Positions 27,622-46,137 are shown, numbered from the stretch's first letter. The stretch is 64,000 bases of DNA from Bacilli bacterium (GCA_045628045.1 JAZQOV010000002.1:96001-160000); one strand, 5' to 3'. Program-made: numbers and translations. Notes: generated from the letters alone by a model not told the origin.

Positions 27622-27688
27622 AAAAGATAACACCTCTAATCTAAAGCATCGAACGTAATTTATAAGTGAAATACTAGTGTTTTCTTTT
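27622..27688 (+). repeat. Repeat A copy 1
   Basis: AAAGATAACACCT..AAGCATCGAACGTAATTTATAAGTGAAATACTAGTGTTTTCTTTT, a few nt after the HEPN stop. Confidence 0.9.
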
Positions 27689-27690
27689 AT

Positions 27691-27749
27691 CTCTTTTGCA
27701 TATTCTATATGCGAGCGTACTTAAGTAGTGAACTTCATTTGCAAAAGAG
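27691..27749 (+). repeat. Hairpin module C
   Basis: CTCTTTTGCA...GCGAGCGTACTTAAGTAGTGAAC...TGCAAAAGAG; recurs at 39424, 42425, 45970. Confidence 0.85.
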
Positions 27750-27884
27750 CTGCTAGAGGATGATAACACAGTAAAATTGAATTGCATAATAAGTATGATG
27801 TGTTAAAATAGCACTAGAAAATTTGAATAACTAAGTTAAATAAATTTGCAAAATTAAAATGATATATTATTGCAATTAGAGAAA

Positions 27885-28664
27885 ATGAATAGAAAAACAT
27901 TCGAAGGATCAATTACTATTGAACATGAAGGCATAACTTATTATGTTTCAGATCTTTCCTATACAATTTGGGAAGATGATTCTTTTGAATTCGTGTTTAC
28001 TCCTAATTATTTTGTTATTGATTTACTTCCAACAAGCGTTTTTCAAGGAATTCCTGGATTAAATCTTGATGAAAGAAAAGAAAAGTATGTTCGCAAAAAC
28101 ATAATGCCGACATTTATTTCTGAAAGAGTTCCTCAAAAAAATAGGGAAGATTTCTTTGAACTTCTAGAAGAAGCTGGTATGGACTATTTAAATCCAATTG
28201 AATATTTGCTAAAAACAAAAAAACAATATAGCGGTGATCCTCTCAAACTTAAAGAAAAGAACGTTAAAACATTAGTGAACATAAACGAATTAGCAGTTAA
28301 AAACAACACATTTGGATTAACAAAAATAATTTTGGATAATCTCGCTAAAGGAAATGATGTTTTCTATGAGGGATCAATTATTGATAACACTAATAGAAAA
28401 GCATTCTTTAATGTTCTTCATGCTTTATATGTAAAAACTTTAAAGGGAAGAGAAGCTACTAGAAATGCAGGAATAGAAAAAGCAAGACAATCTGGTAAAT
28501 ATAAAGGAAGAAAACCAGTTCAAGTTGATATGGTTTTATTTAATGAATCACTCAAAGATATTTCTAATGGAGTAATTAGTGTTTCAGAAGCATGTAAAAG
28601 ACTTAATATCTCCGTGGATAAATTCTATCGTGTTAGAAAAATAGTTAATAAAGAATCTAAGTAA
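27885..28664 (+). CDS. Hypothetical: HipA-N-like domain plus resolvase-type C-terminal arm/HTH
   Basis: FISERVP..NRE...LL...G; C-terminal AGIEKAR..GKYKGRKP..ACKRLNIS..FYR; no YxRxS catalytic domain. Confidence 0.55.
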   Translation: MNRKTFEGSITIEHEGITYYVSDLSYTIWEDDSFEFVFTPNYFVIDLLPTSVFQGIPGLNLDERKEKYVRKNIMPTFISERVPQKNREDFFELLEEAGMDYLNPIEYLLKTKKQYSGDPLKLKEKNVKTLVNINELAVKNNTFGLTKIILDNLAKGNDVFYEGSIIDNTNRKAFFNVLHALYVKTLKGREATRNAGIEKARQSGKYKGRKPVQVDMVLFNESLKDISNGVISVSEACKRLNISVDKFYRVRKIVNKESK

Positions 28665-28773
28665 AGATAACACCTCTTAAGCATTGAACGTAATTTATAA
28701 GTGAAATGCTAGGTGTTTTCTTTTATTCTTTTCTCATTAGAGAAGCGTATCAAGTTCTTGCAGGTCAAGAAAA
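28663..28773 (+). repeat. Repeat A copy 2 plus module B
   Basis: Starts inside the upstream stop codon; followed by TTTTCT..TAGAGAAGCGTATCAAGTTCTTG..CAAGAAAA. Confidence 0.92.
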
Positions 28774-28826
28774 ACGCAAAATAATAACCATTTGCTAATC
28801 AAAGCAAAGCAAAATGTTAGTTTAAG

Positions 28827-28865
28827 AAGGTAGATGTTGACAATGTACCTTCCGAAACTTACAAT
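28827..28865 (+). promoter_or_regulatory. Sigma-A promoter with overlapping inverted repeat (candidate AbiEi operator)
   Basis: TTGACA-17-TACAAT-6-ATG; AAGGTA.AT...AT.TACCTT spans the -35. Confidence 0.7.
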
Positions 28866-28871
28866 ATAGTC

Positions 28872-29423
28872 ATGATTTACACAACGAAACAACTTCTTAA
28901 AAAACACAAAAACAACACAAGTATTAACAGAATGGAGAAATCCGGAAAACTTTTTAGGGTTGCTCAGGGTGTTTATTCTGACGAACAAACTAATGTTGCG
29001 GATTTAGAAAGCATATTTCTTGTGTATAAAAATGCTATTTTAACTAACGAAAGTGCATTTGCCTTTTATGAATTAACCGACAACATTCCTGAAAAGTACT
29101 CAATAGTAACTCCACTTAAGTCACATAGAATTAGCTTTAAAGGTGTTGAGCAAAGCTATATGCAAGATTCAATTTTAAAAATTGGATTAACTAAAGCAAA
29201 AACAGAGTATGGATATATTAATATATATGACAAAGAAAGATTACTTGTTGAATTGTTTAGACTCCGCAACAAGTTTTCTTATGAGCTTTACAAAGAAGTA
29301 GTGGCAAATTATAGAAAACTTGCTATAGAAAATAAAATAGATTTTCTTAAGGTTTTTAAATATTGCGATAAGTTCGCATATGGCAAGACGATAAGAAAGA
29401 TTATTGAGGAGGTAATCATATGA
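28872..29423 (+). CDS. abiEi: Type IV TA antitoxin AbiEi
   Basis: G.L.RV..GVY, SAF.FYELTD.IP, IYDKERLLVE. Confidence 0.85.
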   Translation: MIYTTKQLLKKHKNNTSINRMEKSGKLFRVAQGVYSDEQTNVADLESIFLVYKNAILTNESAFAFYELTDNIPEKYSIVTPLKSHRISFKGVEQSYMQDSILKIGLTKAKTEYGYINIYDKERLLVELFRLRNKFSYELYKEVVANYRKLAIENKIDFLKVFKYCDKFAYGKTIRKIIEEVII

Positions 29424-30226
29424 AAACAATCAGTGAACTTGTAAAAGATAAAATAAATCTTTTTAATATGAATAGAGTTGAGGCAGAGAGCTATGTTTGC
29501 CAAGAAATTATAATCAATAAAATTGCCAAATCTGAGCTTGTTGATAGAACATTCCTAAAGGGTGGTGTTGTGTTGTTTAACATGTCAAAGAATGAACGCC
29601 GCACAACAAGAGATATTGATTTTGATTTAGCACACTACGATATATCCACAGAAGAATCTATGAAAAACTTGGTTTACATGTTAAATAAAAGAGACTCTGA
29701 ATACGTTGTTACCTACATTAAAAGTGATCAGCTACATCAAGACGATTATAAAGGCAGAAGACTTTATCTCAAAGTGTCTGATAAAAGTGCTACATTAAAA
29801 ATTACGATTGATGTGGGTGTTCACACTTTATTTGCAATTAATCAACTTGATTCAATTTTTACATTTAATAATGACAATAACAAAGTAGTGGTTAAAGTGA
29901 ACCCACCTGAGCAAATGATAGCAGAGAAACTTTATTCTTTAGCAAAACACACTATAGTGTCACAAAGATATCGTGATCTTTATGATGTATATTACCTTCT
30001 AAAGAACACTAAAGTTGAAAAGAAGGTAGTTCGTCAATGTTTTGAATTGCTTTTAATTAATAATATGCATGGTTTTAATGATTTGAGTGATGTTATCTCT
30101 AGAATTGATGAAACCCTCTCAAATGAAGTGTTTAAAGAAAGAACTGAAAATGCTTCTAAGAAATGGATTGATATTGACTATCTTACTTTAAAAGAAACAA
30201 TTCTCAATTTGTTATATAACATCTAA
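29420..30226 (+). CDS. abiEii: Type IV TA toxin AbiEii nucleotidyltransferase
   Basis: LKGG, RRTTRDIDF, IAEKL, RYRDLYD. Confidence 0.9.
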   Translation: MKTISELVKDKINLFNMNRVEAESYVCQEIIINKIAKSELVDRTFLKGGVVLFNMSKNERRTTRDIDFDLAHYDISTEESMKNLVYMLNKRDSEYVVTYIKSDQLHQDDYKGRRLYLKVSDKSATLKITIDVGVHTLFAINQLDSIFTFNNDNNKVVVKVNPPEQMIAEKLYSLAKHTIVSQRYRDLYDVYYLLKNTKVEKKVVRQCFELLLINNMHGFNDLSDVISRIDETLSNEVFKERTENASKKWIDIDYLTLKETILNLLYNI

Positions 30227-30233
30227 TAACTTT

Positions 30234-30347
30234 AAAGATAACACCTCTTAAGCATTGAACGTAAGTTATAAGTGAAATGCTAAGGTGTTTTCTTTTATCT
30301 CTTTTCTTGATAGAGAAGCGTAGCAATTTCTCGTATGACAAGAAAAG
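30234..30347 (+). repeat. Repeat A copy 3 plus module B
   Basis: Near-identical to copy 2, a few nt after the abiEii stop. Confidence 0.92.
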
Positions 30348-30615
30348 CCTCAATTTAATATATAGAAATTTATTTACTTAATGAAGACGTTTGTTAATGT
30401 AAGTATAGAGTTCACCCATGATAGTTAATGACTTCGCCTAGTGGGAACTTTTTTATTTACTATTTAGTTTTTTCAAATATAATGTAAATAGCAGGACATG
30501 AGCGAATTAAGTTTCGAGGGGCCTGCTTTTAATTTACTTTATTTCCGATATTTTCCGTTTTTTGTCTGTTTTTGAAAGAGAAACATTAGCAAATTCTCGT
30601 ATAACAAAAAAGATG

Positions 30616-31425
30616 TTAAATTTTGATTCCTGAAATGTCTAAGAAATTATCGATTGAGAATCCTGGCATGTAATTACATGTGGATATGTCCGTTCCAAGT
30701 TTGTTAAACGACTCCCCAAAATGATATGCCTTATCATCAACAAACAAATATCTATCGTGAAACTTATCAACCTTTATTACCTTATATTTGTCTGATTCAA
30801 ATGATTCGTTCTTTGGATGAGTAATTACCACAACCTTTGCTGGGCTGTGTAATAAAATTTCATCAAATGTGTGATCAAAATAGTTATCAATGATTACTAT
30901 TAATTTTTTAGCACTTTTCAATATTTCTTCTAACATAAACAAGGCATCAATACGATTGGCTTCTTTTAGTGTTAAGGATTTGTTTTGGAAATCTTTAATT
31001 TCGTAAATTTGATTTTGAAGATCAATAATTTTTTCTTTGCATTCTAAGCAAGAAAAGTTGGGTTTTGCAAAAATGTATTGTTTTAAAACATAATTTGCCC
31101 ATTGTCTAAATAACGTTCCTCTCTTTCCGTTCACTCTATAGCCCACAGATAAGATAACATCCAGGTTATAAAGGTCAATTTCTCTAGAGACGTTTCTTTC
31201 ACCTTCTAATTGAACAGTTGCATTTTTTGCAACAGTTGAAATTCTTAATAGTTCGTTGCTGTTATAAATATTATTTATGTGTCTAGAAATTGTTGATTTA
31301 TTCTTTTCGAAAAGAGCAGCAATATCATTCAATGAAAGCCATACAGTATCTTCCGTTGGAGAAACATTAACTGGCAATGAAAAGTCTCCATCTTTGAATG
31401 TTAAGATTTCAAATTTTTTGTCCAT
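30616..31425 (-). CDS. RhuM/virulence-family DNA-binding protein with PLD-like C-terminal domain
   Basis: TVWLS...IA.LF..TISRHI.NI, YNLDVILSVGYRV..RG..FRQWA; IIDNY..FHDRYL..YHFGES. Confidence 0.8.
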   Translation of the reverse strand: MDKKFEILTFKDGDFSLPVNVSPTEDTVWLSLNDIAALFEKNKSTISRHINNIYNSNELLRISTVAKNATVQLEGERNVSREIDLYNLDVILSVGYRVNGKRGTLFRQWANYVLKQYIFAKPNFSCLECKEKIIDLQNQIYEIKDFQNKSLTLKEANRIDALFMLEEILKSAKKLIVIIDNYFDHTFDEILLHSPAKVVVITHPKNESFESDKYKVIKVDKFHDRYLFVDDKAYHFGESFNKLGTDISTCNYMPGFSIDNFLDISGIKI

Positions 31426-31598
31426 TTTAGGTTCCTCCTTATATTAAAAATAACAATCTTTTAATCGAACAAGATTGATGCGGTTTTTGCATCTGTGTAA
31501 ATTATAATATGCACGCATTGAAAAGACAAGCATAAATTGAAAATATTTTATTTATTTTTTGCATAATGTTAAAATGATGCAGTAAGGGGAAAATAGGT

Positions 31599-31931
31599 AT
31601 GGATAAATTAGAGGAAGAAATTTCAGAACGTATTAAAGAAATGATGGAAAAGCGTAAGGTCACTCAAAGTGATCTTGCTAGTGAGCTTGGAGTGCACCAA
31701 TATGACATTTCACGCATGTTAAACGGCAAGCCTTTTCCATCTATTTCTCAATTAAAATTGATAGCGAACTATCTTGATTGTTCTTTGTATTATCTAATTG
31801 GAATACAAGAAGAATCATATCGTGAGCTATCACCTGAAACTAGAAAGATAGCTAATGCATATCAATGCGCTAATGAAACCATTAAAGCAGTAGTAGATCT
31901 GGTACTCACAAATAAAAAGATAAGTAAATAA
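31599..31931 (+). CDS. XRE-family transcriptional regulator
   Basis: TQSDLA..LGV....ISR..NG..PS...L..IA..L. Confidence 0.9.
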   Translation: MDKLEEEISERIKEMMEKRKVTQSDLASELGVHQYDISRMLNGKPFPSISQLKLIANYLDCSLYYLIGIQEESYRELSPETRKIANAYQCANETIKAVVDLVLTNKKISK

Positions 31932-31932
31932 A

Positions 31933-31996
31933 AAAGATAACACCTGATTAAGCATTGAACGTAATTTATAAGTGAAATGCTAAGGTGTTTTCTTTT
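31933..31996 (+). repeat. Repeat A copy 4
   Basis: Immediately after the HTH stop; CACCTGATTAAGCATT variant. Confidence 0.92.
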
Positions 31997-32053
31997 GCTA
32001 TATATGATAAAAGTTATAATATATTTATAATTTAGTAAAGGCACTTTATTAAT

Positions 32054-33238: not shown

Positions 33239-33239
33239 C

Positions 33240-33352
33240 AAGAAAACACCTCTAAAGCATTAAACAAAATTCATAAGTGAAATGCTAGGTGTTTTCTTTT
33301 ATCTTTTTTCTTGATAGAGAAGCGTAGCAAGTTCTCGTAGATCGAGAAAAGC
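33240..33352 (+). repeat. Repeat A copy 5 plus module B
   Basis: AGAAAACACCTCTAAAGCATT...AATGCTAGGTGTTTTCT right after the CDF stop. Confidence 0.9.
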
Positions 33353-33560
33353 CGACATTTAGTAGCCTTATATAGGGAATATTTCAAAATAACTTGTTGT
33401 TATAGGTTTTTTCCTATATTCAACATCATGTTTTGTTATTTTATTTTTTTCTTATTGGAACGAACAATATAGGTGAGGAAGGGAAGTAAAATGTTGTTAG
33501 ACTTCTCGTGAAGAATTGCTTCTCTCTCCTCACTTAAAAAAGAAAGGAAAATAACAATAA

Positions 33561-33977
33561 ATGAAATTCTTAAGATGTAAGAAATGTGGTCAGATCGTCG
33601 GTGTTGTAAAAGACACGGGGGTCCCAGTTATTTGCTGTGGTGAGACAATGGAAGAACTCATCCCTCATGTTGATGAAAAGGGATTAAGTGAGAAACACAT
33701 TCCAGTGTACGCAGTAAAGAAAGGCAAATGCATCGCCAAAATAGGTATGATCCCTCACCCAATGACAGATGATCACTATATTGAATGGGTCGCACTCGTC
33801 ACAAACAAGGGGAACCAAAGAAAAGAACTTGAACCTGGTAAATCCCCTCGCGCAGAATTTTCTCTCGATGAAGACGAGGTTGTAGAGGAAATCTACGCGT
33901 ATTGCAATCTCCATCAGCTTTGGAAACTTGATTTAAAGAAAAACAAAGACTGTGGATGCAATATCAAAACAAAATAG
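33561..33977 (+). CDS. dfx: Desulfoferrodoxin / superoxide reductase
   Basis: CKKCG..CCG, EKH.P, HPM...HYIEW, YCNLH. Confidence 0.93.
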   Translation: MKFLRCKKCGQIVGVVKDTGVPVICCGETMEELIPHVDEKGLSEKHIPVYAVKKGKCIAKIGMIPHPMTDDHYIEWVALVTNKGNQRKELEPGKSPRAEFSLDEDEVVEEIYAYCNLHQLWKLDLKKNKDCGCNIKTK

Positions 33978-34153
33978 TTCAAGTTTTATATACATAGATT
34001 TTCTCTCCTTAAGTGAACCGTTCCTCTTATCTATTACCCTCGTAGGAGGACGGTTCACCTAGGAGATAAGTGGTGAAAACTAACCAGAGTGAACGTACAT
34101 CGTAGTGAACTCACATACTTCACCACCTGACAAAAAGGAAAGGAAGATAACTC

Positions 34154-35188
34154 ATGAAAAGAAACGTAATTAAAGCATTAGTATATGACTCCAAAGGATT
34201 CGTTGAAGAATTTTTCGAGATTGCTAACAAAGGAAGAATTAAGTTTAGTTACACTAGTGATAAGCTCAATGCTAACACTGTTAAAACAGCAGAAAGCTAC
34301 GACACGATTGTGGCATTTGTTAACGACACTATAGACAAAAGCGTAATAGACGCACTAGTAAAACAAGGAAAGAAAGCAATCTTCTTGAGAAGCAGCGGAT
34401 TTAATAATGTTGATCTTAATTACATTGATGGGAAATTTAAAGTATTTAGAGTTCCTGCCTATTCACCAGAAGCAGTAGCGGAACACGCCTTTGCGCTAAT
34501 ACAAACTTCAAATAGAAGGATACATAAAGCTTATATTAGAACTAGAGAGTTCAATTTCTCCTTAGACGGGTTGATAGGGAATAATCTAAATAATAAAACC
34601 ATCGGAATTATTGGAACTGGGAAAATAGGGCGAGTCATGATTGATATCGCTAATGGATATAAAATGAATGTAATTGCCTATGATCCATACCCAGTTCCTG
34701 ATCCAACTAACCTTAGTTACGTTTCTCTTCCTGAGTTACTTTCTAGAAGTGACATTATTTCACTACATTGTCCTTTAATTAGTGACACCAAGTACTTGTT
34801 AAATAAGGAAACCTTAGCGCTCACTAAGAAAGGCGTAATGATTGTGAACACTTCTAGAGGAGGCCTTATTGATTCTAGAGCGCTCCTAGATGCGATCAAA
34901 TCTCGTCATGTTTCGAGTGCATGTTTAGATGTCTACGAAGAAGAAACAAATATCTTTTTTGAAGATAAGTCAAATCACATTCTAGATGATGAAGTACTGA
35001 GAGATTTAATTTCCATGCCAAATGTGATTGTAACTTCTCATCAAGGCTTCCTAACTCATGAAGCTTTAGAAAATATTGCTAACACTGTTATTAGTAACAT
35101 CATCAGTTTCTTTGATGGTACCCCTAGAACTGAAAATGAAGTTATTTTAAGTGGTAGTAGCAAACAAAATGAAAGGAAATCAAAATGA
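34154..35188 (+). CDS. ldhA: D-lactate / D-2-hydroxyacid dehydrogenase
   Basis: RVPAYSP.AVAEH, GTGKIG, SLHCPL, NTSRGGL, LDVYEEE, TSHQ. Confidence 0.9.
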   Translation: MKRNVIKALVYDSKGFVEEFFEIANKGRIKFSYTSDKLNANTVKTAESYDTIVAFVNDTIDKSVIDALVKQGKKAIFLRSSGFNNVDLNYIDGKFKVFRVPAYSPEAVAEHAFALIQTSNRRIHKAYIRTREFNFSLDGLIGNNLNNKTIGIIGTGKIGRVMIDIANGYKMNVIAYDPYPVPDPTNLSYVSLPELLSRSDIISLHCPLISDTKYLLNKETLALTKKGVMIVNTSRGGLIDSRALLDAIKSRHVSSACLDVYEEETNIFFEDKSNHILDDEVLRDLISMPNVIVTSHQGFLTHEALENIANTVISNIISFFDGTPRTENEVILSGSSKQNERKSK

Positions 35189-35427
35189 GTAAAAGACAAA
35201 GAGCAAGGTATTTTAGATTTATGGGGTTTGTAACATGCATTGTATCAATCGCTATGATTGTTGGTCTTGTGATCACCATTGTTGGTCAATTCAAAGATGC
35301 TGTAAAAGCATGGCCAATCATCGCTAACTTCTTAAATATCTTAGCAGTACTTGGAGTAGGCTTAGGACTTACTAACTTATTCTATTCTCATGCTTGTGTA
35401 TTAGATGATGAATACTGTGCTAGATAA
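35185..35427 (+). CDS. Small 2-TM membrane protein
   Basis: 80 aa, RBS GAAAGGAAA; resembles the ORFs at 24707 and 24944. Confidence 0.7.
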   Translation: MSKRQRARYFRFMGFVTCIVSIAMIVGLVITIVGQFKDAVKAWPIIANFLNILAVLGVGLGLTNLFYSHACVLDDEYCAR

Positions 35428-35474
35428 TTACCTATGTGATCCAGATGAAGATTCACATGAATTAGATTATTAAT

Positions 35475-35587
35475 AAAGAGAACACCTCTTCAGCATTGAA
35501 CGTAATTTATAAGTGAAATGCTAGGTGTTTTCTTTTATCTCCTTTCTTGATAGAGAAGTGTTGCAAGTTCTCGTATAGCAAGAAAAG
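35475..35587 (+). repeat. Repeat A copy 6 plus module B
   Basis: AAAGAGAACACCTCTTCAGCATTGAACGTAATTTATAAGTGAAATGCTAGGTGTTTTC. Confidence 0.92.
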
Positions 35588-35609
35588 TGCCGCTGGAATA
35601 GGGTATATA

Positions 35610-35663
35610 TGAGACTATTGATATACGTCTCAATGTGAAGTCTATTTAGTCATACGACTTCAC
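35610..35663. repeat. Hairpin modules D and E
   Basis: GAGAC..GTCTC and GTGAAGTC..GACTTCAC; related copies near 37838, 42520 and 45910. Confidence 0.8.
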
Positions 35664-35723
35664 TTGTATATTGTTGAGAATTATAGAATAAAAGGTAGAA
35701 TATAGGTAGAAAAGAGGCTGCTT

Positions 35724-37673: not shown

Positions 37674-37907
37674 TTATTAGATATTATTTCCTTTAGTGGT
37701 TAATTATATTTGATATAAATATTGGTAGAGCCTGTTATTTAAATACTTAGAGATTAAGCACCATTTACATATGGTGCTTTATTTTCTCTTTTGCAAAAGA
37801 GTCGGTAATTAATGCTATTTCATTACGTATTTATGAAGTGGCTATCTAGGTGAGATACGCCACATTGGTGAAGTCTATTTATTGCTCGTGTATCCACTAG
37901 CGAGCAA
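37669..37907 (+). repeat. Repeat F copy 1 with hairpin modules
   Basis: TAATTATTAGATATTATTTCCTTTAGTGGTTAATTATATTTGATATAAATATTGGTAGAGCCTG overlapping the upstream stop. Confidence 0.9.
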
Positions 37908-37981
37908 CAATACGAATTCACCCCACTGGGTAGGGTAATATATGGTGTTTAATGAAATGAATTATGGTGTATAATAAAGAA

Positions 37982-39136
37982 ATGACTAATTCAATTTTAA
38001 TAATTGGAAACGGCTTCGACCTAGCTTGTAACTTAAAGTCAAAATTTTCAAATTTTTTAACTGATGAAAAACTTGAACAATTACGTGCTAATCCATACTC
38101 TTGTGAAAATTTCTGGTATTTATTATCTGCATTAAAATTCAATAAAAATGCTGACAACGAAGAAAATCATATATTCCCCATTCTTGCAAAAGACGATTAT
38201 CTTTGGATGGATATTGAATCTTTGATTAAAGAAGTTTCAACTTCTAAATTACCAAGGTATTACGCACAATTTTTCAAAGAAAATAATTATTTAGCGCTTT
38301 TCACTTCCGCTTTTGTGAATAGAAATAATAATATGTTTTTGGCTAAAGATAATGAATTTTCTTACTTACGAATGTTTTTTATAAAAAGATTTCCCAATAT
38401 TTTTGAGCAAACAATCAATATAATTGATTTCTTGAAATTAGAATTAGAAAAATTTGAAAGAACATTTGCTGCATATTTAATTGAGTCAATTAGAACAACT
38501 GATAATTATTACGAAAAAGCATATGAACTTTTTGGTTTTTTGGGTTGCACTGGAGTGAATCCTGATTTTTTGATTGATTTTAATTACACACACGATGACG
38601 AAAAATTTAATGAATTATTTGGAAACGATAATAGAATTTTTATTCATGGTTCGGTTAAAAATAAGCCTATTATCGGATTCGATTCTTCTAATATTTCTAG
38701 TGATGCACCCGTGTTATTGAGTAAAGCATGGCAGAAAATGTCATCAAATATTAGTGGTGTAAAGCTGCCACAATTTGACGAAGAATTTGAGATTAAATTT
38801 TTCGGTCATTCACTTGGTGAACAAGATTACTCATATTTTCATGCATTATTTGATCGCTATGATATTTATAATAAAAAGGTTTCTCTCTGTTTTATCTATA
38901 GCCGATATAAGGATGATGAAAAAGAGAATGATGAAATAACAAAAACATATTGTAATGATGTTTATAAATTATTAAATGATTATGCATTGAGAAGTGGAAA
39001 AGAAAGTAATTACAGAACATTAATTAGTAGATTACAAATAGAAAACAGGTTACACATTTATGAATTAAAAGAGTATGTAAAAAGTCATTCTTTTTCCGAA
39101 CAATTCAAAGAAATAAAAGCAAAAGGAAATGAATAA
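37982..39136 (+). CDS. AbiH-family abortive infection protein
   Basis: IIGNGFDL, W.DIE, FNYT, IHG, GHSL..D..YF. Confidence 0.85.
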   Translation: MTNSILIIGNGFDLACNLKSKFSNFLTDEKLEQLRANPYSCENFWYLLSALKFNKNADNEENHIFPILAKDDYLWMDIESLIKEVSTSKLPRYYAQFFKENNYLALFTSAFVNRNNNMFLAKDNEFSYLRMFFIKRFPNIFEQTINIIDFLKLELEKFERTFAAYLIESIRTTDNYYEKAYELFGFLGCTGVNPDFLIDFNYTHDDEKFNELFGNDNRIFIHGSVKNKPIIGFDSSNISSDAPVLLSKAWQKMSSNISGVKLPQFDEEFEIKFFGHSLGEQDYSYFHALFDRYDIYNKKVSLCFIYSRYKDDEKENDEITKTYCNDVYKLLNDYALRSGKESNYRTLISRLQIENRLHIYELKEYVKSHSFSEQFKEIKAKGNE

Positions 39137-39242
39137 AGACACTATGAATCGCCTAATAGATTTAATTGATTTAGATAAATATAATGATGAACCTGAGTAT
39201 AAGGCTACTTTAGAGGAATTCTTTTCTTCTTTAGATGATTAA
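39129..39242 (+). CDS. Putative 37-aa acidic peptide
   Basis: AAAGGA RBS, ATG overlaps the end of abiH; MNKDTMNRLIDLIDLDKYNDEPEYKATLEEFFSSLDD. Confidence 0.4.
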   Translation: MNKDTMNRLIDLIDLDKYNDEPEYKATLEEFFSSLDD

Positions 39243-39289
39243 TACTTTTTGAAATATTAAATATAATTAACTTCTAATTTATATCTATT

Positions 39290-39481
39290 ATATTAGGAAC
39301 CTTATGGTTCCTTTTATTTTAATTATTAGATATTATTTCCTTTAGTGTTCAATTATATTTAATATAAATATAAGATAAGGTAAATAAGAATTAATAGGTA
39401 GCAATTATTGCTACATTTTTAATCTTTTTTGCAATTAATAAATGTGAGCGTAGTTTACTAGTGAACAGATTTGCAAAAGAG
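39290..39481 (+). repeat. Repeat F copy 2 plus module C
   Basis: AGGAACC-TTAT-GGTTCCT-TTTATTTT then the F body; C at 39424-39481. Confidence 0.88.
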
Positions 39482-39575
39482 CCGGCGGTGGTAGCCTTAT
39501 ATATCGTTTTCAATATATTGAAATGAGGTACACGATAAAAATATGCCGAAATTAATTTATAAGTTTTTCTCTTAG

Positions 39576-39765
39576 AGAATATAAGAAGAGTCATATCGTG
39601 AACTAGCACCCGAGACTAGAAAGATAGCTAATACATATCAATCTACTAATGATGCAGTCAAACGAGTTATTAACTTAGTACTATTGAATAAAGACTCAAT
39701 CAATTGATAATGATAACAGCCGATTAAGCACTAATAAAATTTGAAAATGGATGCAAGTGTTGTTT
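39576..39765 (+). pseudogene. Remnant of XRE regulator 3' half plus decayed repeat A
   Basis: Translates I*EESYRELAPETRKIANTYQ...LVLLNK versus IQEESYRELSPETRKIANAYQ...LVLTNK of 31599-31931. Confidence 0.88.
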
Positions 39766-39920
39766 GAACAAACGAAATTTATTAACATAAAGTGATAATT
39801 ACAGGGAATTTCCTTTATAAGGAGGAGTGTTTCAAATTTTAGTCCTTTTTCAATTTTGTGAAAAAAACTTGCACAAAAATGAATAATCGTGTAATCTTTA
39901 GATAATATCGAGGTAAACAC

Positions 39921-41180
39921 ATGATTGGTTCGTTAACATTTAATAACTTTCGTTTCTTTGAACAGTTTCAAACAATGTCGTTTTTTGCTGATTTAAGAAC
40001 TAGAAAGTTGGTCTCCAATTCTCTTAAAATTTCAAATAAGAATGTTTTAAAAACAACAGCAATTTACGGTTCTAATAATTCTGGCAAATCTAATGTTGTT
40101 GATCTTTTTTATAGATTAAAAATGGTGTTAGAAGGAAAAGATGTTGATTTTAACACAAAAGCGTTAGGCGATAGTGAAACCGTTGAATTAAGCATTACTT
40201 TCAATAATAATGACGGGGATGGTTGGTTTTGTTATTCGTTTAGTTTTAATCATGAAAAAAGATCCTTTCTTAAAGAAAAATTCTCATCTATTTCTTATTA
40301 TGATGAAGGCGCCCCCTTTGAAAAAGTAATTTTTGAGAAGGATGTTGAATCTTTAAGATTAATGATTCTTGGTGAGGAAAAATCTGAATTATTAAATGTT
40401 ATTACATCAAATAAACCTTTGCTGTATACTTTAAATTTAGAAAAAGGAAATTTTTCTGAATTATCAATTTTTTTAGAAAAAATTAAAAAATTATCTGACT
40501 CCATCATTGTTTTAAGGATGTTTAATATTCCTATTCAAAATACAATCAATGCTCTAAAAGGTTCTGACAATAACAAAAAGAACTTTATTAAAGAATTCGT
40601 TAAAAATGCTGATTTAACAATCGATGATTTTGATTATACTCAAAAACAACTTGTAAATTTTGAAAAACCAAAAACGGTAAACGAAGACGCTTTAAAAGAA
40701 ATTGCACAACTTGAGGAAGCGTTACATTTAGGAACAAAGTATAAAAATAAATTTGTTCCTTCTATTTTGTTCGATTCTTCGGGAACAAAGAAGATTCAAG
40801 CAATTGCGTCTTTTATCTATGATTCTATTTTTGAAGGAAAAACTCTTATTATTGATGAATTAGATAATGGTCTTCATTATAAACTTAGCAGAGCAGTTGT
40901 AAGTGCATTTAACAATTTAGCAAATAAATCTGGACAATTGATTTTTACAGCACATGATTTACTTTTAATCAGCAATAATAATTTGATGAGAAAAGACCAA
41001 ATTTATTTTGTTTCTAGAGAAAATTTGAATTCTAGATTGGTTTGGCTTAGAGATTTAACCGTGGCATCCGGCGGGCCAAGAGATATGGAAGTATTAGTTA
41101 AACGTTATAACCATGGTGATTTTGTTCGTACTCCTTCCCCGTCTTTTATTGATAATATTTTCGATATTAAAGCTAGGTAA
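39921..41180 (+). CDS. RloA-like AAA_21 ABC ATPase
   Basis: IYGSNNSGKSN, SSGTKK, LIIDELDNGLH, QLIFTAHD, MRKDQIYFV. Confidence 0.85.
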   Translation: MIGSLTFNNFRFFEQFQTMSFFADLRTRKLVSNSLKISNKNVLKTTAIYGSNNSGKSNVVDLFYRLKMVLEGKDVDFNTKALGDSETVELSITFNNNDGDGWFCYSFSFNHEKRSFLKEKFSSISYYDEGAPFEKVIFEKDVESLRLMILGEEKSELLNVITSNKPLLYTLNLEKGNFSELSIFLEKIKKLSDSIIVLRMFNIPIQNTINALKGSDNNKKNFIKEFVKNADLTIDDFDYTQKQLVNFEKPKTVNEDALKEIAQLEEALHLGTKYKNKFVPSILFDSSGTKKIQAIASFIYDSIFEGKTLIIDELDNGLHYKLSRAVVSAFNNLANKSGQLIFTAHDLLLISNNNLMRKDQIYFVSRENLNSRLVWLRDLTVASGGPRDMEVLVKRYNHGDFVRTPSPSFIDNIFDIKAR

Positions 41181-41185
41181 TTAAA

Positions 41186-41884
41186 ATGGAAGAAAAGTAC
41201 TGTGTTCATTTAATAGTTGAAGGATTTGAAGAAGAAAAGTTTTTCGAAGTTGTTCGAGCTTTTGGAGTAAATGAAAATATTAAATTAACAGTACAAAATG
41301 CCGATGGAGCACATAAGATTGGCGGAAAATATCAGGACGCAATTTCTAATGATGAGTATGATATTGTGCTTTGTGTTTATGATGTCGATTATAAATATAG
41401 TATAAAAGATTCAGCATTTAATTACGTAATGAATGAACTTGTTGAGATTACTGGTTGTAGCTTAGATGCTATGAAGATTAGTTATTGTAATAACCCAAAT
41501 ATTTTAATTTGGTTTTTAGTAGGGACTGAAAAGGTTTCCGACATGGAATTTGTATACGCTTCAAAACCAAAAAACACAAAAGCATTGCATAACCATTGGG
41601 AAGAAATTGGAAAAGGCATAGAAAAGGACACAACTTATAAGACCTATGAAGCTCGTGATTATCAATTAAATATTATGAGAGATTCATATTTATATGGTCA
41701 TTATAGTTATGACAAAATTTTAAGTAATGGAGTAGAATTTGATACCGATTTAAAAAGTAGCTCTATGTCTTCAACAATGTATAAATTATTAGAAGCACTA
41801 AAAATTGGTGATAAGAAATATTTTGAAAGTTTAAAGGAGAAAAATAATGACAAACCTAACACTTCAAGAAAAAGAAAAAATTAA
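41186..41884 (+). CDS. RloB-like TOPRIM-fold partner
   Basis: VEG.EE..F, CVYDVD, NNP...WFL; downstream of the RloA-like ATPase. Confidence 0.7.
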   Translation: MEEKYCVHLIVEGFEEEKFFEVVRAFGVNENIKLTVQNADGAHKIGGKYQDAISNDEYDIVLCVYDVDYKYSIKDSAFNYVMNELVEITGCSLDAMKISYCNNPNILIWFLVGTEKVSDMEFVYASKPKNTKALHNHWEEIGKGIEKDTTYKTYEARDYQLNIMRDSYLYGHYSYDKILSNGVEFDTDLKSSSMSSTMYKLLEALKIGDKKYFESLKEKNNDKPNTSRKRKN

Positions 41885-42062
41885 AAGTATCTTAAATTAT
41901 GGTTTAAATTTAAATCCCAATCTTAATTTCGCTTACTTTCTTAATGCGATTAAACAAACAAACGACACCGTTTCAGGATTGGATTCAAAATTAAACACGA
42001 TTATTTATAATCAAAAGATTATTGATCAAAAATTAGATAGAATTATTAATTCAATTAAGTAA
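41847..42062 (+). CDS. Small hypothetical coiled-coil protein
   Basis: AAAGGAG RBS, 71 aa, heptad-like C-terminus. Confidence 0.55.
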   Translation: MTNLTLQEKEKIKSILNYGLNLNPNLNFAYFLNAIKQTNDTVSGLDSKLNTIIYNQKIIDQKLDRIINSIK

Positions 42063-42149
42063 TGAATTTATTGTAGAGTGTGTGAACGGGCGGCTAAGCT
42101 CATTGTTTCTTTTTAACCAATTGAAAATAAAGATAGAAATGGTTAGTTT

Positions 42150-42248
42150 ATGAATTTTTTTAATTTGTTTCCAGTCGGTTAAGACTTGTTTTATGCCGGT
42201 TTATTAAGCAACAGCAATTATTCATTTGTTTATGATTGCGGATTATAA
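42150..42248 (+). pseudogene. N-terminal remnant of an MBL-fold hydrolase
   Basis: MNFFNLFPVG*DLFYAG...FVYDCG matches the PVGQGLF...VYDCG start of MBL-fold proteins. Confidence 0.55.
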
Positions 42249-42282
42249 AATCAAATTTAATTAACACGCAAGTATATCTTTT

Positions 42283-42562
42283 TATTAGGAACCTTAGGTT
42301 CCTTTTATTTTAATTTTTAGATATTATTTCCTTTAATGGTTAATTATATTTGATATAAATATTGGTAGAGCCTGCCACTTAAATACGCAGGACTCAAGCA
42401 CCTTCTTTGTATGTTGCTTTTTTTCTCTTTCGCAATCCATATAAGCGAACGTACTGAAGTAGTGAACTTCATTTGCAAAAGAGTTGGTAATTAATGCTAT
42501 TTCATTACGCATTTATGAAGTGGCTATCTAGGCGAGATACACCATATTGGTGAAGTCTATTT
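42283..42562 (+). repeat. Repeat F copy 3 with modules C, D and partial E
   Basis: Colinear with copy 1 at 37669-37880. Confidence 0.9.
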
Positions 42563-42797
42563 TCTCGCATACATAGTGTGCCAAACAAAGATTCCATTGA
42601 TTTTTGTTGGATTAAAAATTAACTATTAAAAAAGGCGCAATACAATGCGCCATTGATTTCAAAACATAATTAACCTAATAATATAGCTTCGAAACCCTTC
42701 TAATTGTCTATATTATATACAACAATCATAAAAAGAGTCAAATTTTTTATTAAACATTTTTATATTTATTAAATATTTTAGTAGTAAAAGGGGTGGG

Positions 42798-44819
42798 TTA
42801 TTCATTTTCGTTTGAATTTGAAAAGTAGTGTTTTTTATCTTTTTTTACAAAAACCGATTTGATTCCAAGTAATTTTACTAAATTAGCATTTTTAAATCTT
42901 GTTGAAGGCGTTCTTAACCAATAATATAGCATTACTAATAATACATTTATTAAAACAATCGAACCAACAAACCAGAATTTTGGAGTAGTAATTGCATCGA
43001 ACATTAAGCCGCCAATAGACATAGGCGGTTTATTAAAGTAAGTGATATCGTTAACTTTATAGCCATCAATAAATATTTTAGATATCATTCCAAACCCAAA
43101 CATTGTTACTGCTAAACTAGCAACTGTGAAAGATATGTTTACCCAATGGTAAAATCTATCGTTTGATATGTTTGTTTCACGCCACGAAAATTTGTTTTGA
43201 TTTTCTAAATCTTCAACAATAGTATCAATGTTTAATTTTTTGAAGACGGTTTTAGAGAGATCAAAATTATTTTTGAAACCATAATAGATTATAGAATACT
43301 TTCTTTCAATTTCGGAAAATAAATACGAAATTATTTTATTCTTTTTTCTAATGCCGCCATATTTTCTATTATATTCAGAAGACAATATTTTAATGTAGGC
43401 TAGTAAAGAAGCATAACTACAGCATTGACAAATGTATTCATAATCCCACAAAACATAGTAGCGAAATTTGTGTGATGCCGGTTCAATAAGCTTCATTCGC
43501 GTGTTAACATCAGTTTGAATATTAAGAGCCTGTTCAGCTAGATTGATTACAGTGTATGTGAATTGACCATCTTCATAAAATAGATGTTGTGTGTTTTGGT
43601 TAATCAAATCAAAATTTTTGATATTAGCCTTTCTTCCTTTAAATAAAGTATATGGGTCATAGTTATGATGATTACCTACGAGTAAACTTAAATAGTTAAA
43701 GAAAGTAGTTCCTAATTTTTTCTTTTTGTGAGCTTCTAAAATATAGAAATTTAAATATAAACATTTCCATACTTTAATTTGTTTATTATAATTTTCAATT
43801 AAGTTTAGAATTTGAGTGTCTTTTGCATCAAGCTTTGGGCATAATTCAAATGAATTAAAAGGCTCATGATTGTTTTTGTTGTCAGATTTTTTATCAAAAA
43901 TATTTTTATAAATGATTACCTTTCCATTAAAATTTAAGAATGAATTTAAATCAATAACAGAGAATATTTTTGGCAATTTGTTCATATAAGAATTAATGTT
44001 ATCGGCAGTTTTAACCGCTAAAGGAACATAGTTTAAAATGTTCTTTTTTATATCCAACTTAAATAAGCATGAATCATTTTGTTGGTTATTATTTTGTTTC
44101 CCAGATTGGATTTTTTTGCTCGACACAACAGAAAAATTTAAAAGACCATCGCAAGAAACAAGAATTAATGCTTTTGCATCATTCGCCAAACAATCGCTCA
44201 AATCGCAAACCGAATCCATACTCTTTGCTTCTTTTATAATTTTTTCCAATTGCAACGCTAGTTTATTGTTTGTTTTTTCATTATTATCATTTCTGATTCT
44301 TTGCCAATACTTAATCCTATTTCTAATGTTCTTATTAAACTTTTTTATTTTATTAACATTAGAACAATTTGCATTATAAATCTTTTTTAGCTTATCAATA
44401 CCATCAACAACCCTTAAATACTTCTTATTACATTCAGAATATGTAAAATCTGATTTAAAATAGTCGAAATATTCGAAAATCAATTTATATTTTTCTTTTA
44501 AGAAATCGTCCCTTTTCTTTTTGTCAGATTCCTTTTTGCACATATTATCAATACTGTATTCAAACAATACAAAATCATTTTTAGCCAATTCTTTAATGCT
44601 ATAGTTATCGCCTTTACTATATCTGAGAACTTGTTTTCCGGAAGCTATTTCGTCATCAAAATATTTGGTAATAAACTCATTAATAAGCAAGTTATTTTTA
44701 GACCCTAATGGACCAGCATTTTCCATACACTTAGCTAAAATTTCCTCATACTTACAAGTATAAATAAATGTTTTAGTGCAAAAATATATTGGTTCTATTT
44801 TTAATTTTACATACGCCAT
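42798..44819 (-). CDS. Large hypothetical protein with CorA-like C-terminal 2-TM segment
   Basis: Helical stalk, then TM1 ending TMFGFGMI (GMN-like) and TM2; very AT-rich. Confidence 0.5.
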   Translation of the reverse strand: MAYVKLKIEPIYFCTKTFIYTCKYEEILAKCMENAGPLGSKNNLLINEFITKYFDDEIASGKQVLRYSKGDNYSIKELAKNDFVLFEYSIDNMCKKESDKKKRDDFLKEKYKLIFEYFDYFKSDFTYSECNKKYLRVVDGIDKLKKIYNANCSNVNKIKKFNKNIRNRIKYWQRIRNDNNEKTNNKLALQLEKIIKEAKSMDSVCDLSDCLANDAKALILVSCDGLLNFSVVSSKKIQSGKQNNNQQNDSCLFKLDIKKNILNYVPLAVKTADNINSYMNKLPKIFSVIDLNSFLNFNGKVIIYKNIFDKKSDNKNNHEPFNSFELCPKLDAKDTQILNLIENYNKQIKVWKCLYLNFYILEAHKKKKLGTTFFNYLSLLVGNHHNYDPYTLFKGRKANIKNFDLINQNTQHLFYEDGQFTYTVINLAEQALNIQTDVNTRMKLIEPASHKFRYYVLWDYEYICQCCSYASLLAYIKILSSEYNRKYGGIRKKNKIISYLFSEIERKYSIIYYGFKNNFDLSKTVFKKLNIDTIVEDLENQNKFSWRETNISNDRFYHWVNISFTVASLAVTMFGFGMISKIFIDGYKVNDITYFNKPPMSIGGLMFDAITTPKFWFVGSIVLINVLLVMLYYWLRTPSTRFKNANLVKLLGIKSVFVKKDKKHYFSNSNENE

Positions 44820-44832
44820 AAATATAACACCC

Positions 44833-45453
44833 TTATAAAATTTCTATTTTAATATTATCATTACCAATTTCACTAGTAAGATCGTAATGGTTAATAGTGT
44901 CATAAAATAAACCAAATTTCAAACTTTTACTATTAGATAACAATGTGTAATCATCTTTATTTATTTTTACTTTGCGATTTACATTATTTTCATCGTCCAA
45001 AAAATTGAAATAGTAATCAGTCCCATCTGTTGAAAAATAATTTAAATTTTTTAAATTATTACATTCGAACTCAATATAATGCGTCTTTCTAAAAGGATTA
45101 ATGAATTTAATTGAATCAAATATACATAAAATGGAACTCTTTAGTTTTTCTTCAATAACATGATAGTCAGTAATTTCCATTGTTACATTGAATTGCATAT
45201 CATGAATCATGCTTTCTGTGTAAAAAGATAACTTATCTGAATCCTTTTCTCCGCAGGAATCTGGAATATTAATTTTAAGATTTTTTGAATTCTTTTCATT
45301 TGGGTTTGGAGCATAAAAATAATTATCACCGTATTTAAAAAGTATATCTGAATAACTAAAATTAAAATGTTCTTTAATGTGTGTTTTTGTGTTATCGTGA
45401 CAGTTGTTAACTAAAGTAGATGTAAAGATTATGAACCAAGTTTTAAATTTCAT
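44833..45453 (-). CDS. Hypothetical protein
   Basis: AT-rich ORF just upstream of the CorA-like gene; start uncertain. Confidence 0.5.
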   Translation of the reverse strand: MKFKTWFIIFTSTLVNNCHDNTKTHIKEHFNFSYSDILFKYGDNYFYAPNPNEKNSKNLKINIPDSCGEKDSDKLSFYTESMIHDMQFNVTMEITDYHVIEEKLKSSILCIFDSIKFINPFRKTHYIEFECNNLKNLNYFSTDGTDYYFNFLDDENNVNRKVKINKDDYTLLSNSKSLKFGLFYDTINHYDLTSEIGNDNIKIEIL

Positions 45454-45792
45454 ACATTCTAATATACTTATTAACAATTACTTTGTAAACAATATTTCTT
45501 TTATTAATTAAAAAAATTCTAATTTCCAAGAATCTTTCCGTTGATCCTATTTATGCGTGTTAATTTTTGTGAATGAAGTACACTTACGTTTGTTAAGTTG
45601 CTTATGACGGGCAAATCTAAACCTACATTCGAGATATCGCACAAGAATTCAAACATCGCTTTTGCAATAGACACTACATATTATTAAACCGTTATTAATA
45701 AATAATATTACTTATAATAATATTTATGTATAGAATAGAGACACTATAAAGAAATATAAGATTAGTTACACAACTGGAGTATATGACTTATT

Positions 45793-46026
45793 ATATTAGG
45801 AACCTTAAGGTTCCTTTTATTTTAATTATTGGATATTATTTCCTTTAGTGGTTAATTATATTTGATATAAATATTGGTTGAGCCTGCTATTAAAATACAC
45901 AGAACTCAAGTGGCTAATTGATACGCCACTATGTGAAGTCGATTAGTTTATACGACTTCACTTTTTATTCTCTTTTGCATGTTTATAAGTGAACGTACTT
46001 AGTAGTGAACTTCATTTGCAGAAGAG
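45793..46026 (+). repeat. Repeat F copy 4 with modules D, E, C
   Basis: AGGAACCTTAAGGTTCCT, F body, GTGGC/GCCAC, GTGAAGTC/GACTTCAC, C hairpin. Confidence 0.9.
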
Positions 46027-46137
46027 CCGATGCTGATAGTTATTTTGAGATTATTTTTGCAGGAGAAACTTATGGTGATTTATGGTAAAATTTTTAGTAT
46101 AATTTAAATATAATATTTAATTTAATAGGAGAAATGT

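What the first reader, a model, noticed from the sequence alone, without database searches (positions are those of the whole stretch)
27622..46026. Repeat-delimited gene-cassette array with no visible integrase
Seen: nearly every accessory unit ends in a conserved, same-orientation repeat. Repeat A (about 62 nt imperfect hairpin) lies at 27622, 28663, 30234, 31933, 33240, 35475 and decayed at 39711; repeat F lies at 37669, 39290, 42283, 45793. Several start within or just after the upstream stop codon. Units hold 1-3 unrelated genes, many with their own promoter. I saw no copies in the housekeeping or core capsule zones. Accessory hairpins B, C, D, E occur in different orders (A-C, A-B, A-B-D-E, F-C-D-E, F-D-E-C). 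Known: integron arrays show gene-plus-attC periodicity, but these repeats lack the RYYYAAC/GTTRRRY ends and no IntI, HUH or DDE gene is in the window. Inference: a non-integron cassette capture/shuffling system, acting by homologous recombination between repeats or by a trans-encoded recombinase. Best candidate for an undescribed system.
Basis: partly seen in the sequence, partly recalled or inferred. Interest (0 to 1): 0.88.

Follow-up and report, generated by a model that had tools for sequence, protein, structure and literature searches.

The report
Hairpin-bounded, integrase-free defence cassette stack
Behind a capsule gene of an uncultured gut bacterium, predicted anti-phage and toxin-antitoxin genes are stacked between repeated hairpin sequences and have different neighbours in different strains; the stack likely grows and reshuffles by ordinary homologous recombination with incoming DNA, not by a dedicated integrase.

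Summary
The repeats are real, at the stated places, and almost confined to this locus. Related strains in public assemblies carry the same units with other neighbours, and most of the joints shown fall at the repeats, so shuffling is supported.

This is not an integron: no IntI, no attC ends, and no recombinase shared by the three carrier genomes beyond XerC/D (five families searched). Two congeners explain the layout. Their array is wecB-C-cargo-A followed by a displaced copy of the wecB 3' end, repeated. These copies differ mostly at synonymous sites, so each was likely once a working allele. F is an imported terminator plus likely promoter region. The same genome shows displaced gene ends at other loci without these hairpins.

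Best reading (0.6): insertion with long target duplication, then RecA-type exchange between repeats (PeSL-like), probably through natural transformation. Unexplained: new cargo joins within a few bases of the hairpin feet (9 distinct flanks among 11 C copies; 8 among 8 B). That leaves room for a hairpin-reading enzyme (0.2). This scan has reported displaced-gene-end arrays on other DNA before; the hairpin modules and the strain evidence are what this case adds.

The parts
25366..26688 (+). wecB-type UDP-GlcNAc 2-epimerase with N-terminal HTH; anchor gene of the array; its 3' end is duplicated between cassettes in two congeners
26673..26702 (+). predicted wecB terminator
26724..26755 (+). hairpin J; strains X1 and X7 leave the window sequence at its 3' foot (26750); a related hairpin lies at C11:22954
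26778..27613 (+). cargo: MNT-HEPN toxin-antitoxin pair
27622..27750 (+). repeat A followed by repeat C
27870..28664 (+). cargo: 264-aa protein, weak PADLOC PDC-M03B and HTH hits (HipA-N-like by eye, recalled)
28663..28774 (+). repeat A and repeat B
28872..30226 (+). cargo: AbiEi-AbiEii
30234..30347 (+). repeat A and repeat B
30551..30612 (+). worn B copy (B'); the 266 nt between B and B' are missing in strain X1, with the joint inside the repeats
30616..31425 (-). cargo: RhuM-family (PDC-S05) protein
31599..31997 (+). Xre HTH gene with repeat A (31933); the RhuM-Xre-A module recurs in other contexts in G017 and twice in L020/L021
32054..33238 (+). cargo: cation-efflux transporter
33240..33351 (+). 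repeat A and repeat B
33561..35427 (+). cargo: superoxide reductase, D-2-hydroxyacid dehydrogenase, small membrane protein; homologues of the first two sit upstream of the capsule genes, without repeats, in G017 and G042; a C-type core lies at 34088-34112
35475..35665 (+). repeats A, B, D, E
35724..37673 (+). cargo: PARIS AriAB-like ATPase fusion
   Evidence: E 1e-92
37669..37910 (+). F core, hairpin G, a further hairpin, loopless C, D, half E, hairpin H
37964..39136 (+). cargo: AbiH
39143..39384 (+). imported 242-nt piece: likely gene-end fragment, terminator and AT-rich F; 95% identical to a stretch just before a capsule IspD-like gene in G289 (another genus)
39424..39482 (+). repeat C
39577..39790 (+). 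displaced 3' end of the Xre gene with a worn A
39921..41884 (+). cargo: AbiLi ATPase and AbiLii/RloB
42283..42562 (+). F, G, hairpin, C, D, half E
42798..45477 (-). cargo: two ORFs (673 and 214 aa) with no Pfam, NCBIfam or PADLOC hit
45793..46027 (+). F, G, D, E, C; end of the array before the capsule acyltransferase

Best explanation
This is a strain-variable stack of accessory genes behind wecB, bounded by repeated hairpins, that likely grows by insertion with target duplication and likely reshuffles by RecA-type recombination between the repeats, with no dedicated integrase found. Inferred step 1: incoming DNA, probably taken up by natural competence, pairs by homology with the end of a resident gene and joins illegitimately at its other end. 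It supplies a new gene end and terminator and pushes the old end downstream. Inferred step 2: the pushed ends, terminators and hairpins (A, B, C, D/E, F, J) pile up as 50-370-nt direct repeats. These then serve as homology arms for deleting, adding and swapping whole units between strains. Inferred step 3: in this species the wecB-derived spacer has been lost between T-rich microhomologies, leaving A-C and A-B. The weakest step: hairpins would fix where illegitimate joints fall, for example by stopping exonuclease trimming or fork slippage on single-stranded DNA.
For: Shown. (1) G017 and L020/L021 carry wecB-C-cargo-A-[wecB 3' end about 220 nt]-C-other cargo-A-[wecB 3' end]-C. (2) Among these 6 wecB ends, 12 of 16 variable columns are synonymous where 42 of 195 sites are (rough binomial p 7e-6; columns are not independent). 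The 4 non-synonymous changes are all in displaced copies of L020: 1 in the second copy, 3 in the third. 9 of 36 column pairs show four gametes. (3) A second locus in G000 (C13) has the same build without A-F: three copies of a gene end plus terminator, 4 synonymous and 0 non-synonymous differences. Of 7 relatives fetched there, 2 have a displaced, decayed end (G016, G017) and 5 have a single end; G042 shows the empty site. (4) Displaced 5' ends also occur: the capsule ABC gene in G017 and two places on G000 C6. The targets share no sequence that I could see. (5) Strain X1 joins wecB-J through 508 other letters to A-B-RhuM, lacks the 266 nt between B and B', and holds the AbiE and 264-aa units on other contigs at similar depth (36-40x); 7 of the 9 X1 joints shown touch a repeat. 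X7, X14 and X15 show other neighbours again. In X7 the C copy before the 264-aa gene has 8 listed substitutions and 2 gaps in 65 nt, against 10 differences in 638 nt of that gene. (6) RecA in 4 of 4 genomes, ComEC in 2 of 4 including G000. (7) Precedent: PMC2853133, PMC5361080, PMC2839356.
Against: Junctions are sharper than random illegitimate joining predicts. By eye, there are 9 distinct 3' flanks among 11 C copies, 8 among 8 B copies, and 7 different genes upstream of 11 A copies, nearly all diverging within about 5 nt of the hairpin foot. At C13 two unrelated cargos join the target within 1-2 nt of each other, which hints at site preference. Repeats of 50-120 nt at about 80-95% identity are short for RecA (general knowledge). 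The origin of B, C and D/E is unknown, and B and C are not followed by T-runs, so they are not ordinary terminators. ComEC was not found in G017 (93% complete) or G016 (62%). No excised circle was seen. 2 of the 9 X1 joints shown are not at a repeat, and both joint tables were cut (15 of 71 and 15 of 34 shown).
Confidence: 0.6

Rival explanations
1. An unidentified trans-acting enzyme (HUH-like, Ssn-like GIY-YIG, or a tyrosine recombinase acting on folded single strands) recognises the hairpins, cuts at their feet and captures or moves cargo. A would be the right end and B or C the left end of non-autonomous cassettes.
For: Flanks diverge at the hairpin feet in nearly all copies. A and C share an inner motif (GAACGTA...AGTGAA; 10 of 16 genome matches lie in array modules, against 2-8 in shuffles). 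A B-H-J-Fic unit with a probable A stub lies on another contig. The AAC/GTT pair of A is invariant in 11 copies. Ssn nucleases cut single-stranded DNA near hairpin repeats (PMC11893778, passages). A 301-aa Xer-like recombinase is shared by G000 and G017 at 94%.
Against: That recombinase was not found in G042, which has the array, and is present in G003, which has no match to A or C. Y1 transposase 0 of 4 genomes; resolvase only in G042; reverse transcriptase not in G000; no small hairpin-flanked GIY-YIG gene seen in the two short GIY-YIG loci read. Sequences after A are heterogeneous and microhomology-like. A shows no compensatory pair; C shows one, reached by 91 of 500 shuffles. The same scars form at loci without these hairpins. 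I searched only five recombinase or nuclease families plus reverse transcriptase, not every one.
Confidence: 0.2
2. The units are decayed integrative elements (CIME-type tandem accretion). Integrase-bearing elements entered the wecB 3' end, restored it, and later lost their mobility genes.
For: The polarity fits: the incoming DNA supplies the working 3' end and the old end decays downstream. An earlier unchecked note proposes serine-recombinase ends behind tRNA genes in this genome (e1-4709624).
Against: No integrase remnant in the cargo ORFs of the window, nor by eye in the two congener arrays. The duplicated pieces come from at least five unrelated genes and include 5' ends. The junction centre differs between the A side and native wecB, whereas tyrosine integrases need identical overlaps (general knowledge).
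Confidence: 0.12
3. B, C and D/E are REP- or MITE-like elements that insert behind terminators on their own, and the cassette look is a passive by-product of a variable capsule and defence hotspot.
For: Intact C copies follow a hairpin and T-run, including a single C behind the adhE terminator in G016. Independent insertion would give sharp borders on both sides. The mosaics resemble BIMEs (recalled).
Against: No genome-wide spread: one B outside the array in G000; C in 0 of 150 other genomes of the order; B pattern in 0 of 300 family genomes (an exact pattern that also misses the G017 copy). No RAYT/Y1 gene. No target-site duplication seen. Whole units change neighbours between strains at the repeats.
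Confidence: 0.08

Closest known systems
Insertion with long target duplication (Furuta et al. 2010, PMC2853133, passages read; Nobusato et al. 2000 seen only as its reference 37)
   Same: Insert flanked by long, variable direct repeats with no mobility gene; repeats span a start or stop codon; empty site in a related genome; mostly in naturally competent species.
   Different: Described for single restriction-modification inserts. Here the events are stacked about ten deep, carry toxin-antitoxin, Abi, PARIS-like and metabolic genes, and leave reusable hairpin modules.
PeSL cassettes of T4-type phages (PMC2839356 passages; PMC4122927 abstract)
   Same: Short repeated terminator/promoter modules between accessory genes; strain differences map to them; no dedicated recombinase identified.
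   Different: PeSLs are one conserved promoter-plus-stem-loop family in phage genomes, with mini-circles shown by experiment. Here the setting is a bacterial chromosome, several unrelated modules are used, only F looks promoter-bearing, and circles were not shown.
Displacement arrays at Vibrio T6SS effector-immunity loci (PMC5361080, passages)
   Same: Array proposed to grow by homology-facilitated illegitimate recombination anchored in an upstream gene, pushing older modules downstream; mosaic alleles; no evidence of an integrase.
   Different: There the anchor is the effector gene and the cargo is one functional class. Here the anchor is a capsule enzyme and its terminator, and the cargo is unrelated.
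Integron cassette arrays / CALIN (PMC4889954, passages)
   Same: Gene-plus-hairpin periodicity, same orientation, defence and toxin-antitoxin cargo.
   Different: No IntI, no RYYYAAC/GTTRRRY ends, cargo with predicted promoters of its own, and several repeat types. That survey found no complete integrons in Firmicutes or Tenericutes, though it found CALIN in Firmicutes.
IncN CUP repeats (PMC5371602, passages); CIMEs (search listing only; details recalled)
   Same: Repeats or att scars that delimit integrase-free accessory units.
   Different: CUPs are promoter repeats at operon 5' ends on plasmids. CIMEs need a shared att core and an integrase in trans.

Membership tests
Integron / CALIN | IntI integrase in the genome | tested here: not met
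   Three tyrosine recombinases score 104-144 bits on TIGR02249 (cut-off 265); best hits are XerC/XerD. The genome is 96% complete.
Integron / CALIN | attC ends RYYYAAC ... GTTRRRY | tested here: not met
   None of the 8 pattern matches falls on a repeat. Only the AAC/GTT triplets of A agree.
Integron / CALIN | match to the IntegronFinder attC covariance model | not testable with these tools
   Model not held. Rfam gave only 3 chance snoRNA hits far below their cut-offs.
Insertion with long target duplication | direct repeat longer than 30 bp, of variable length, flanking the insert | tested here: met
   About 220-290 nt at wecB, about 150 nt at C13, about 90 nt in G017.
Insertion with long target duplication | no mobility gene in the insert | tested here: met
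   (window); by eye for congeners
Insertion with long target duplication | empty site with one repeat copy in a relative | tested here: met
   G042 at the C13-type locus; B/B' in strain X1. Not shown for every window unit.
Insertion with long target duplication | restriction and modification genes as cargo (criterion of the 2010 survey) | tested here: not met
   Window cargo is toxin-antitoxin, Abi, PARIS-like and metabolic. It works like this class without meeting the RM criterion.
PeSL-type shuffling | repeated composite promoter plus terminator | tested here: inconclusive
   The F hairpin is terminator-like in 3 of 4 copies; promoter matches are not above shuffles (116 against 117.5). A, B and C are not flagged by that scan, whose loop limit is 8 nt.
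PeSL-type shuffling | strain differences map to the repeats | tested here: met
   7 of 9 X1 joints shown; most X7 joints shown
PeSL-type shuffling | excised mini-circles | not testable with these tools
   All 8 runs laid are assembled contigs, which drop rare forms.
REP/REPIN-RAYT, BIME | genome-wide dispersal and a Y1/RAYT transposase | tested here: not met
pdif (XerC/D) modules | 28-bp dif-like sites with a fixed 6-bp spacer | tested here: not met
   The best dif-like site is C3:11509 and none of the 11 loose matches lies in the array (consensus recalled); the loop of A varies in length.
CIME / tandem islands | shared att core and a cognate integrase in some relative | tested here: inconclusive
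   No shared core seen at the junctions. Integrase families were checked in only 4 genomes.

The most novel reading that the evidence does not exclude
A gene-capture platform of reduced-genome Bacilli in which folded single-strand hairpins (A as right end, B or C as left end, sharing a tandem-GA core) are read by a so far unrecognised enzyme that joins foreign defence genes exactly at the hairpin feet: an integron analogue built from different parts.
Probability: 0.2. Interest if true: 0.82.

Novelty: new variant of a known kind. Interest (0 to 1): 0.47.

Why it matters
On the best reading, this is a chromosomal counterpart of phage PeSL shuffling. It shows how a 1-Mb genome can keep an integron-like, fast-turning bank of predicted defence genes with housekeeping recombination only. 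The mostly synonymous, position-ordered gene-end copies record the order and the donors of past acquisitions. The cargo slots are also a short list for finding new defence genes (the 673-, 214- and 264-aa proteins). If the hairpins are enzyme sites, it would be a new gene-capture machinery.

Tried and rejected
Metagenome pattern scan for A: 2 hits, both chance matches inside nuoL of an unrelated genome. Viral-contig scans for A, C and B: 0 each. Plasmid and phage BLAST: none. Rfam: nothing at the repeats. C model on 150 other genomes of the order: 0. C core pattern in 60 other genomes of the class: 0. A model in the genus: strong hits in 3 of 37; 7 more genomes had weak hits (E 7e-4 to 0.045) that I did not inspect and treat as generic hairpins. 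The G018 hit is noise.

Strand-specific folding is inconclusive. The top strand folds better in 8/11 A, 10/11 C and 5/8 B copies as RNA, and in 7/11, 4/11 and 6/8 as DNA. Covariation gives no support. Fold-back joining: the right arm of A pairs with the wecB junction better than with all but one other site in 1.3 kb, but the two C13 junctions show no such pairing (9 and 5 better sites), so I dropped it as a general mechanism. An apparent serine-recombinase start at 37877 is better read as hairpin H. Resemblances to pC194 nick sites, primosome sites, K-turns and RPE repeats are recalled and untested. Bins without cover in the laid runs (MNT-HEPN, AriAB, AbiH, AbiL in X1) are not counted as absence.


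Full report
1. Observation. The window is C2:96001-160000 of a 1.07-Mb, 14-contig, 96%-complete genome. Two matching public records are titled as Bacilli, and laid runs labelled gut metagenome hold long pieces at 98-99% identity. Between a wecB-type epimerase (25366-26688) and the main capsule genes (from 46138) lie about ten units: MNT-HEPN, a 264-aa protein, AbiE, RhuM with an Xre gene, a cation-efflux transporter, superoxide reductase with a dehydrogenase, a PARIS AriAB-like protein, AbiH, AbiL and two unknown ORFs. Outside the array the genome has one B copy at C11:22780. It is followed by hairpins H and J, a Fic-type gene (named by eye) and a probable 16-nt stub of A that occurs once in the genome. 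The array holds the two 10-kb bins richest in short repeat pairs.

2. Anatomy of the repeats. A is a hairpin of about 62 nt (z -4.0 to -5.4 for two copies) that ends in a T-run and starts at or just after a stop codon. I infer a terminator role. The pattern scan did not flag it, but its loop limit is 8 nt. B (z -3.2) and C (z -1.0, -1.5) have outer stems of about 10 bp, follow T-runs and are not followed by one. A and C share an inner core with a predicted tandem G-A pair: 10 of 16 genome matches to a loose core pattern lie in array modules, against 2-8 in shuffles. D, E, G and H share a related bulged stem (partly by eye). Covariation does not support the folds: A has 0 pairs changed on both sides, C has 1 (91 of 500 shuffles). 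Strand preference is inconclusive. F is different. Window 39143-39384 is 95% identical to a stretch that lies once, just before a capsule IspD-like gene, in G289 of another genus, and its first hairpin is terminator-like. Window 39577-39790 is a displaced 3' end of the Xre gene with a worn A.

3. Distribution. A gives strong hits in 3 of 37 species of the genus (G000, G017, G042), each time behind wecB. The exact-pattern scan of 185,579 species returned two other records. C occurs in these three and once in G016, behind the adhE terminator, and in 0 of 150 other genomes of the order. Nothing was found in viral contigs, plasmids, phages or Rfam.

4. What the congeners show. G017 and L020/L021 read wecB-terminator-C-[ATPase, SWIM]-A-[last about 220 nt of wecB]-terminator-C-[RhuM, Xre]-A-[wecB end]-C-[other cargo]. 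L020/L021 has a second RhuM-Xre-A unit between two copies of a 288-nt piece that begins with the displaced 5' start of the capsule ABC-transporter gene and ends in E and B. Among the six wecB ends, 12 of 16 variable columns are synonymous, where 42 of 195 sites are (rough p 7e-6, columns not independent). The three G017 copies differ only synonymously. The four amino-acid changes lie in the displaced L020 copies, one in the nearer and three in the farther. Nine of 36 column pairs show four gametes. I infer that each displaced copy was a working allele until it was pushed out or came from another strain, and that the copies recombine. The A-C junction of the window can be derived from A-wecB-C by a deletion between two 8-nt T-rich matches (inference).

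5. The same scars without these hairpins. On G000 C13 the last about 150 nt of a conserved gene with its terminator stand three times, each before different cargo (an ATPase and two toxin-antitoxin pairs, named by eye), with 4 synonymous and 0 non-synonymous differences. Eight of 37 genomes matched that peptide and I fetched all 7 relatives. G017 and G016 each have one decayed displaced end behind other cargo. G042, G003, G008, G021 (only 1.5 kb held) and G024 have one end, and G042 runs straight into the next core gene. In G017 the displaced end keeps a terminator like that of G042 and the working end has a foreign one (by eye), so the incoming DNA likely supplied the new end. Two displaced 5' ends were found among 914 ORFs of G000. 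The targets share no sequence that I could see, which argues for a general process over one site-specific enzyme.

6. Strain variation. I laid 8 of 24 listed runs (5 studies); all are assembled contigs, and the tables were cut. In X1 (36-40x) one contig runs wecB-J to 26750, then 508 other letters, then A-B, and skips the 266 nt between B and B' with 9 letters fitting both sides. The AbiE and 264-aa units lie on other contigs with other upstream sequence. 7 of the 9 X1 joints shown touch a repeat; 2 (30522 and 30536) do not. X7 (52x) joins J towards A, and the small membrane gene towards F instead of A-B. X14 has MNT-HEPN with A on both sides. X14 and X15 show A joined to the wecB end and to part of F; X3 shows A joined to the F core. 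In X7 the C before the 264-aa gene differs by 8 substitutions and 2 gaps in 65 nt while the gene differs by 10 in 638 nt, which suggests exchange among repeat copies. Caveats: contigs break at repeats, so order is read from junction-bearing pieces; deep samples mix species; joints inside cargo genes in X2 probably come from diverged homologues; circles cannot be seen in such data.

7. Enzymes. G000 encodes XerC, XerD and a 301-aa Xer-like protein, all far below the integron-integrase cut-off. The third is in G017 (94%) and G003 (71%, no repeats) but was not found in G042. Y1 transposase 0 of 4; resolvase only G042; reverse transcriptase only G017 and G042; no Ssn-like gene seen in the loci read. 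RecA is in 4 of 4, ComEC in G000 and G042; ComEA and DprA were named by eye in G000. The best dif-like site is on C3, not in the array.

8. Mechanism. Shown: repeats, cargo, displaced gene ends with mostly synonymous divergence, empty sites, changed neighbours between strains, no shared recombinase among the families searched. Inferred: anchor-and-join insertion that duplicates a gene end, then exchange between the accumulated repeats, probably by transformation (0.6). Unexplained: nearly every new flank starts within about 5 nt of a hairpin foot (by eye 9 distinct of 11 for C, 8 of 8 for B, 7 genes for 11 A; the script counted 10, 8 and 9 because of indels), and two cargos join the C13 target 1-2 nt apart. 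Folded single strands acting as trimming or slippage stops would explain this. The + strand of C2 is G-rich throughout and so is probably the lagging-strand template. A hairpin-reading enzyme (0.2), decayed integrative elements (0.12) and free REP-like hairpins (0.08) remain as rivals.

9. Literature. Insertion with long target duplication: long, variable repeats spanning start or stop codons, no mobile genes, mostly competent species (PMC2853133, passages). PeSL shuffling with mini-circles (PMC2839356, passages; PMC4122927, abstract). Displacement arrays by homology-facilitated illegitimate recombination (PMC5361080; PMC2884548; passages). Transformation-driven duplication between repeats (PMC3784515, abstract). 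CALIN (PMC4889954), Ssn (PMC11893778) and CUP (PMC5371602), all passages; no supplements read. Four searches listed no description of this locus or these hairpins; the library lacks most subscription papers. This scan has noted displaced-gene-end arrays in several other genomes (unchecked AI notes, one of which gave me the long-target-duplication lead).

10. Verdict. A real, actively varying defence-cassette stack; a new variant of known integrase-free mechanisms, with one open feature, the precision of the joints at hairpin feet. Interest 0.47.

Noticed in passing
G000 C13:117-2523 (also C13:3196-9199 and C2:1-260): Second integrase-free stack: three copies of a conserved gene's last ~150 nt plus terminator with ATPase and toxin-antitoxin cargo, then surface-protein genes sharing C-termini and terminators.
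   Followed up: yes
L017:7385-9160 (G000 C11:22384-24160): SAM riboswitch (RF00162) before a 107-aa ORF, then B-H-J, a Fic-type gene and an A stub; a duplicated promoter with a structured leader lies just upstream (C11:21462-21927).
   Followed up: partly
window 20769-22076, 22096-23361, 25366-26688, 47210-47935: Nucleotide-sugar or capsule genes with N-terminal Xre HTH domains (Pfam HTH_3 on three of them; the fourth by eye); noted earlier by this scan in other genomes.
   Followed up: no
G000 C6:195000-207600 (L016): Island with the 301-aa Xer-like recombinase, TIR-like and radical-SAM genes with a Cys-rich small ORF (named by eye), and a displaced TIR 5' end at 202337-202524.
   Followed up: partly
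G000 C6:57303-57496 versus 63145-63338: Promoter and first 20 codons of an ABC-transporter gene duplicated 5.8 kb away.
   Followed up: partly
G000 C3:93317-96197 and C6:58923: tRNA-3'-like repeats with triple boxes bounding a restriction-modification islet; covered by earlier notes of this scan.
   Followed up: no
G000 C6:71545, C7:13045, C7:67106, C14:35231: A 65-95-nt promoter-region repeat at four loci, including upstream of dprA and comEA; possibly a competence-regulon box (inference).
   Followed up: no
G000 C3:11509: Likely chromosomal dif site.
   Followed up: no
L069:5495-6303 (G024): The window's MNT-HEPN pair with its upstream region (79% identical) sits at another locus in a congener that lacks strong A or C matches.
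   Followed up: no
window 42798-45477: 673-aa and 214-aa ORFs with no family hit, shared with strain X1; candidates for new defence genes.
   Followed up: no
L014:11700-12900 (G017 C34:69700-70912): Broken IS110-like transposase gene (named by eye) next to a B copy; not seen at the window array.
   Followed up: no
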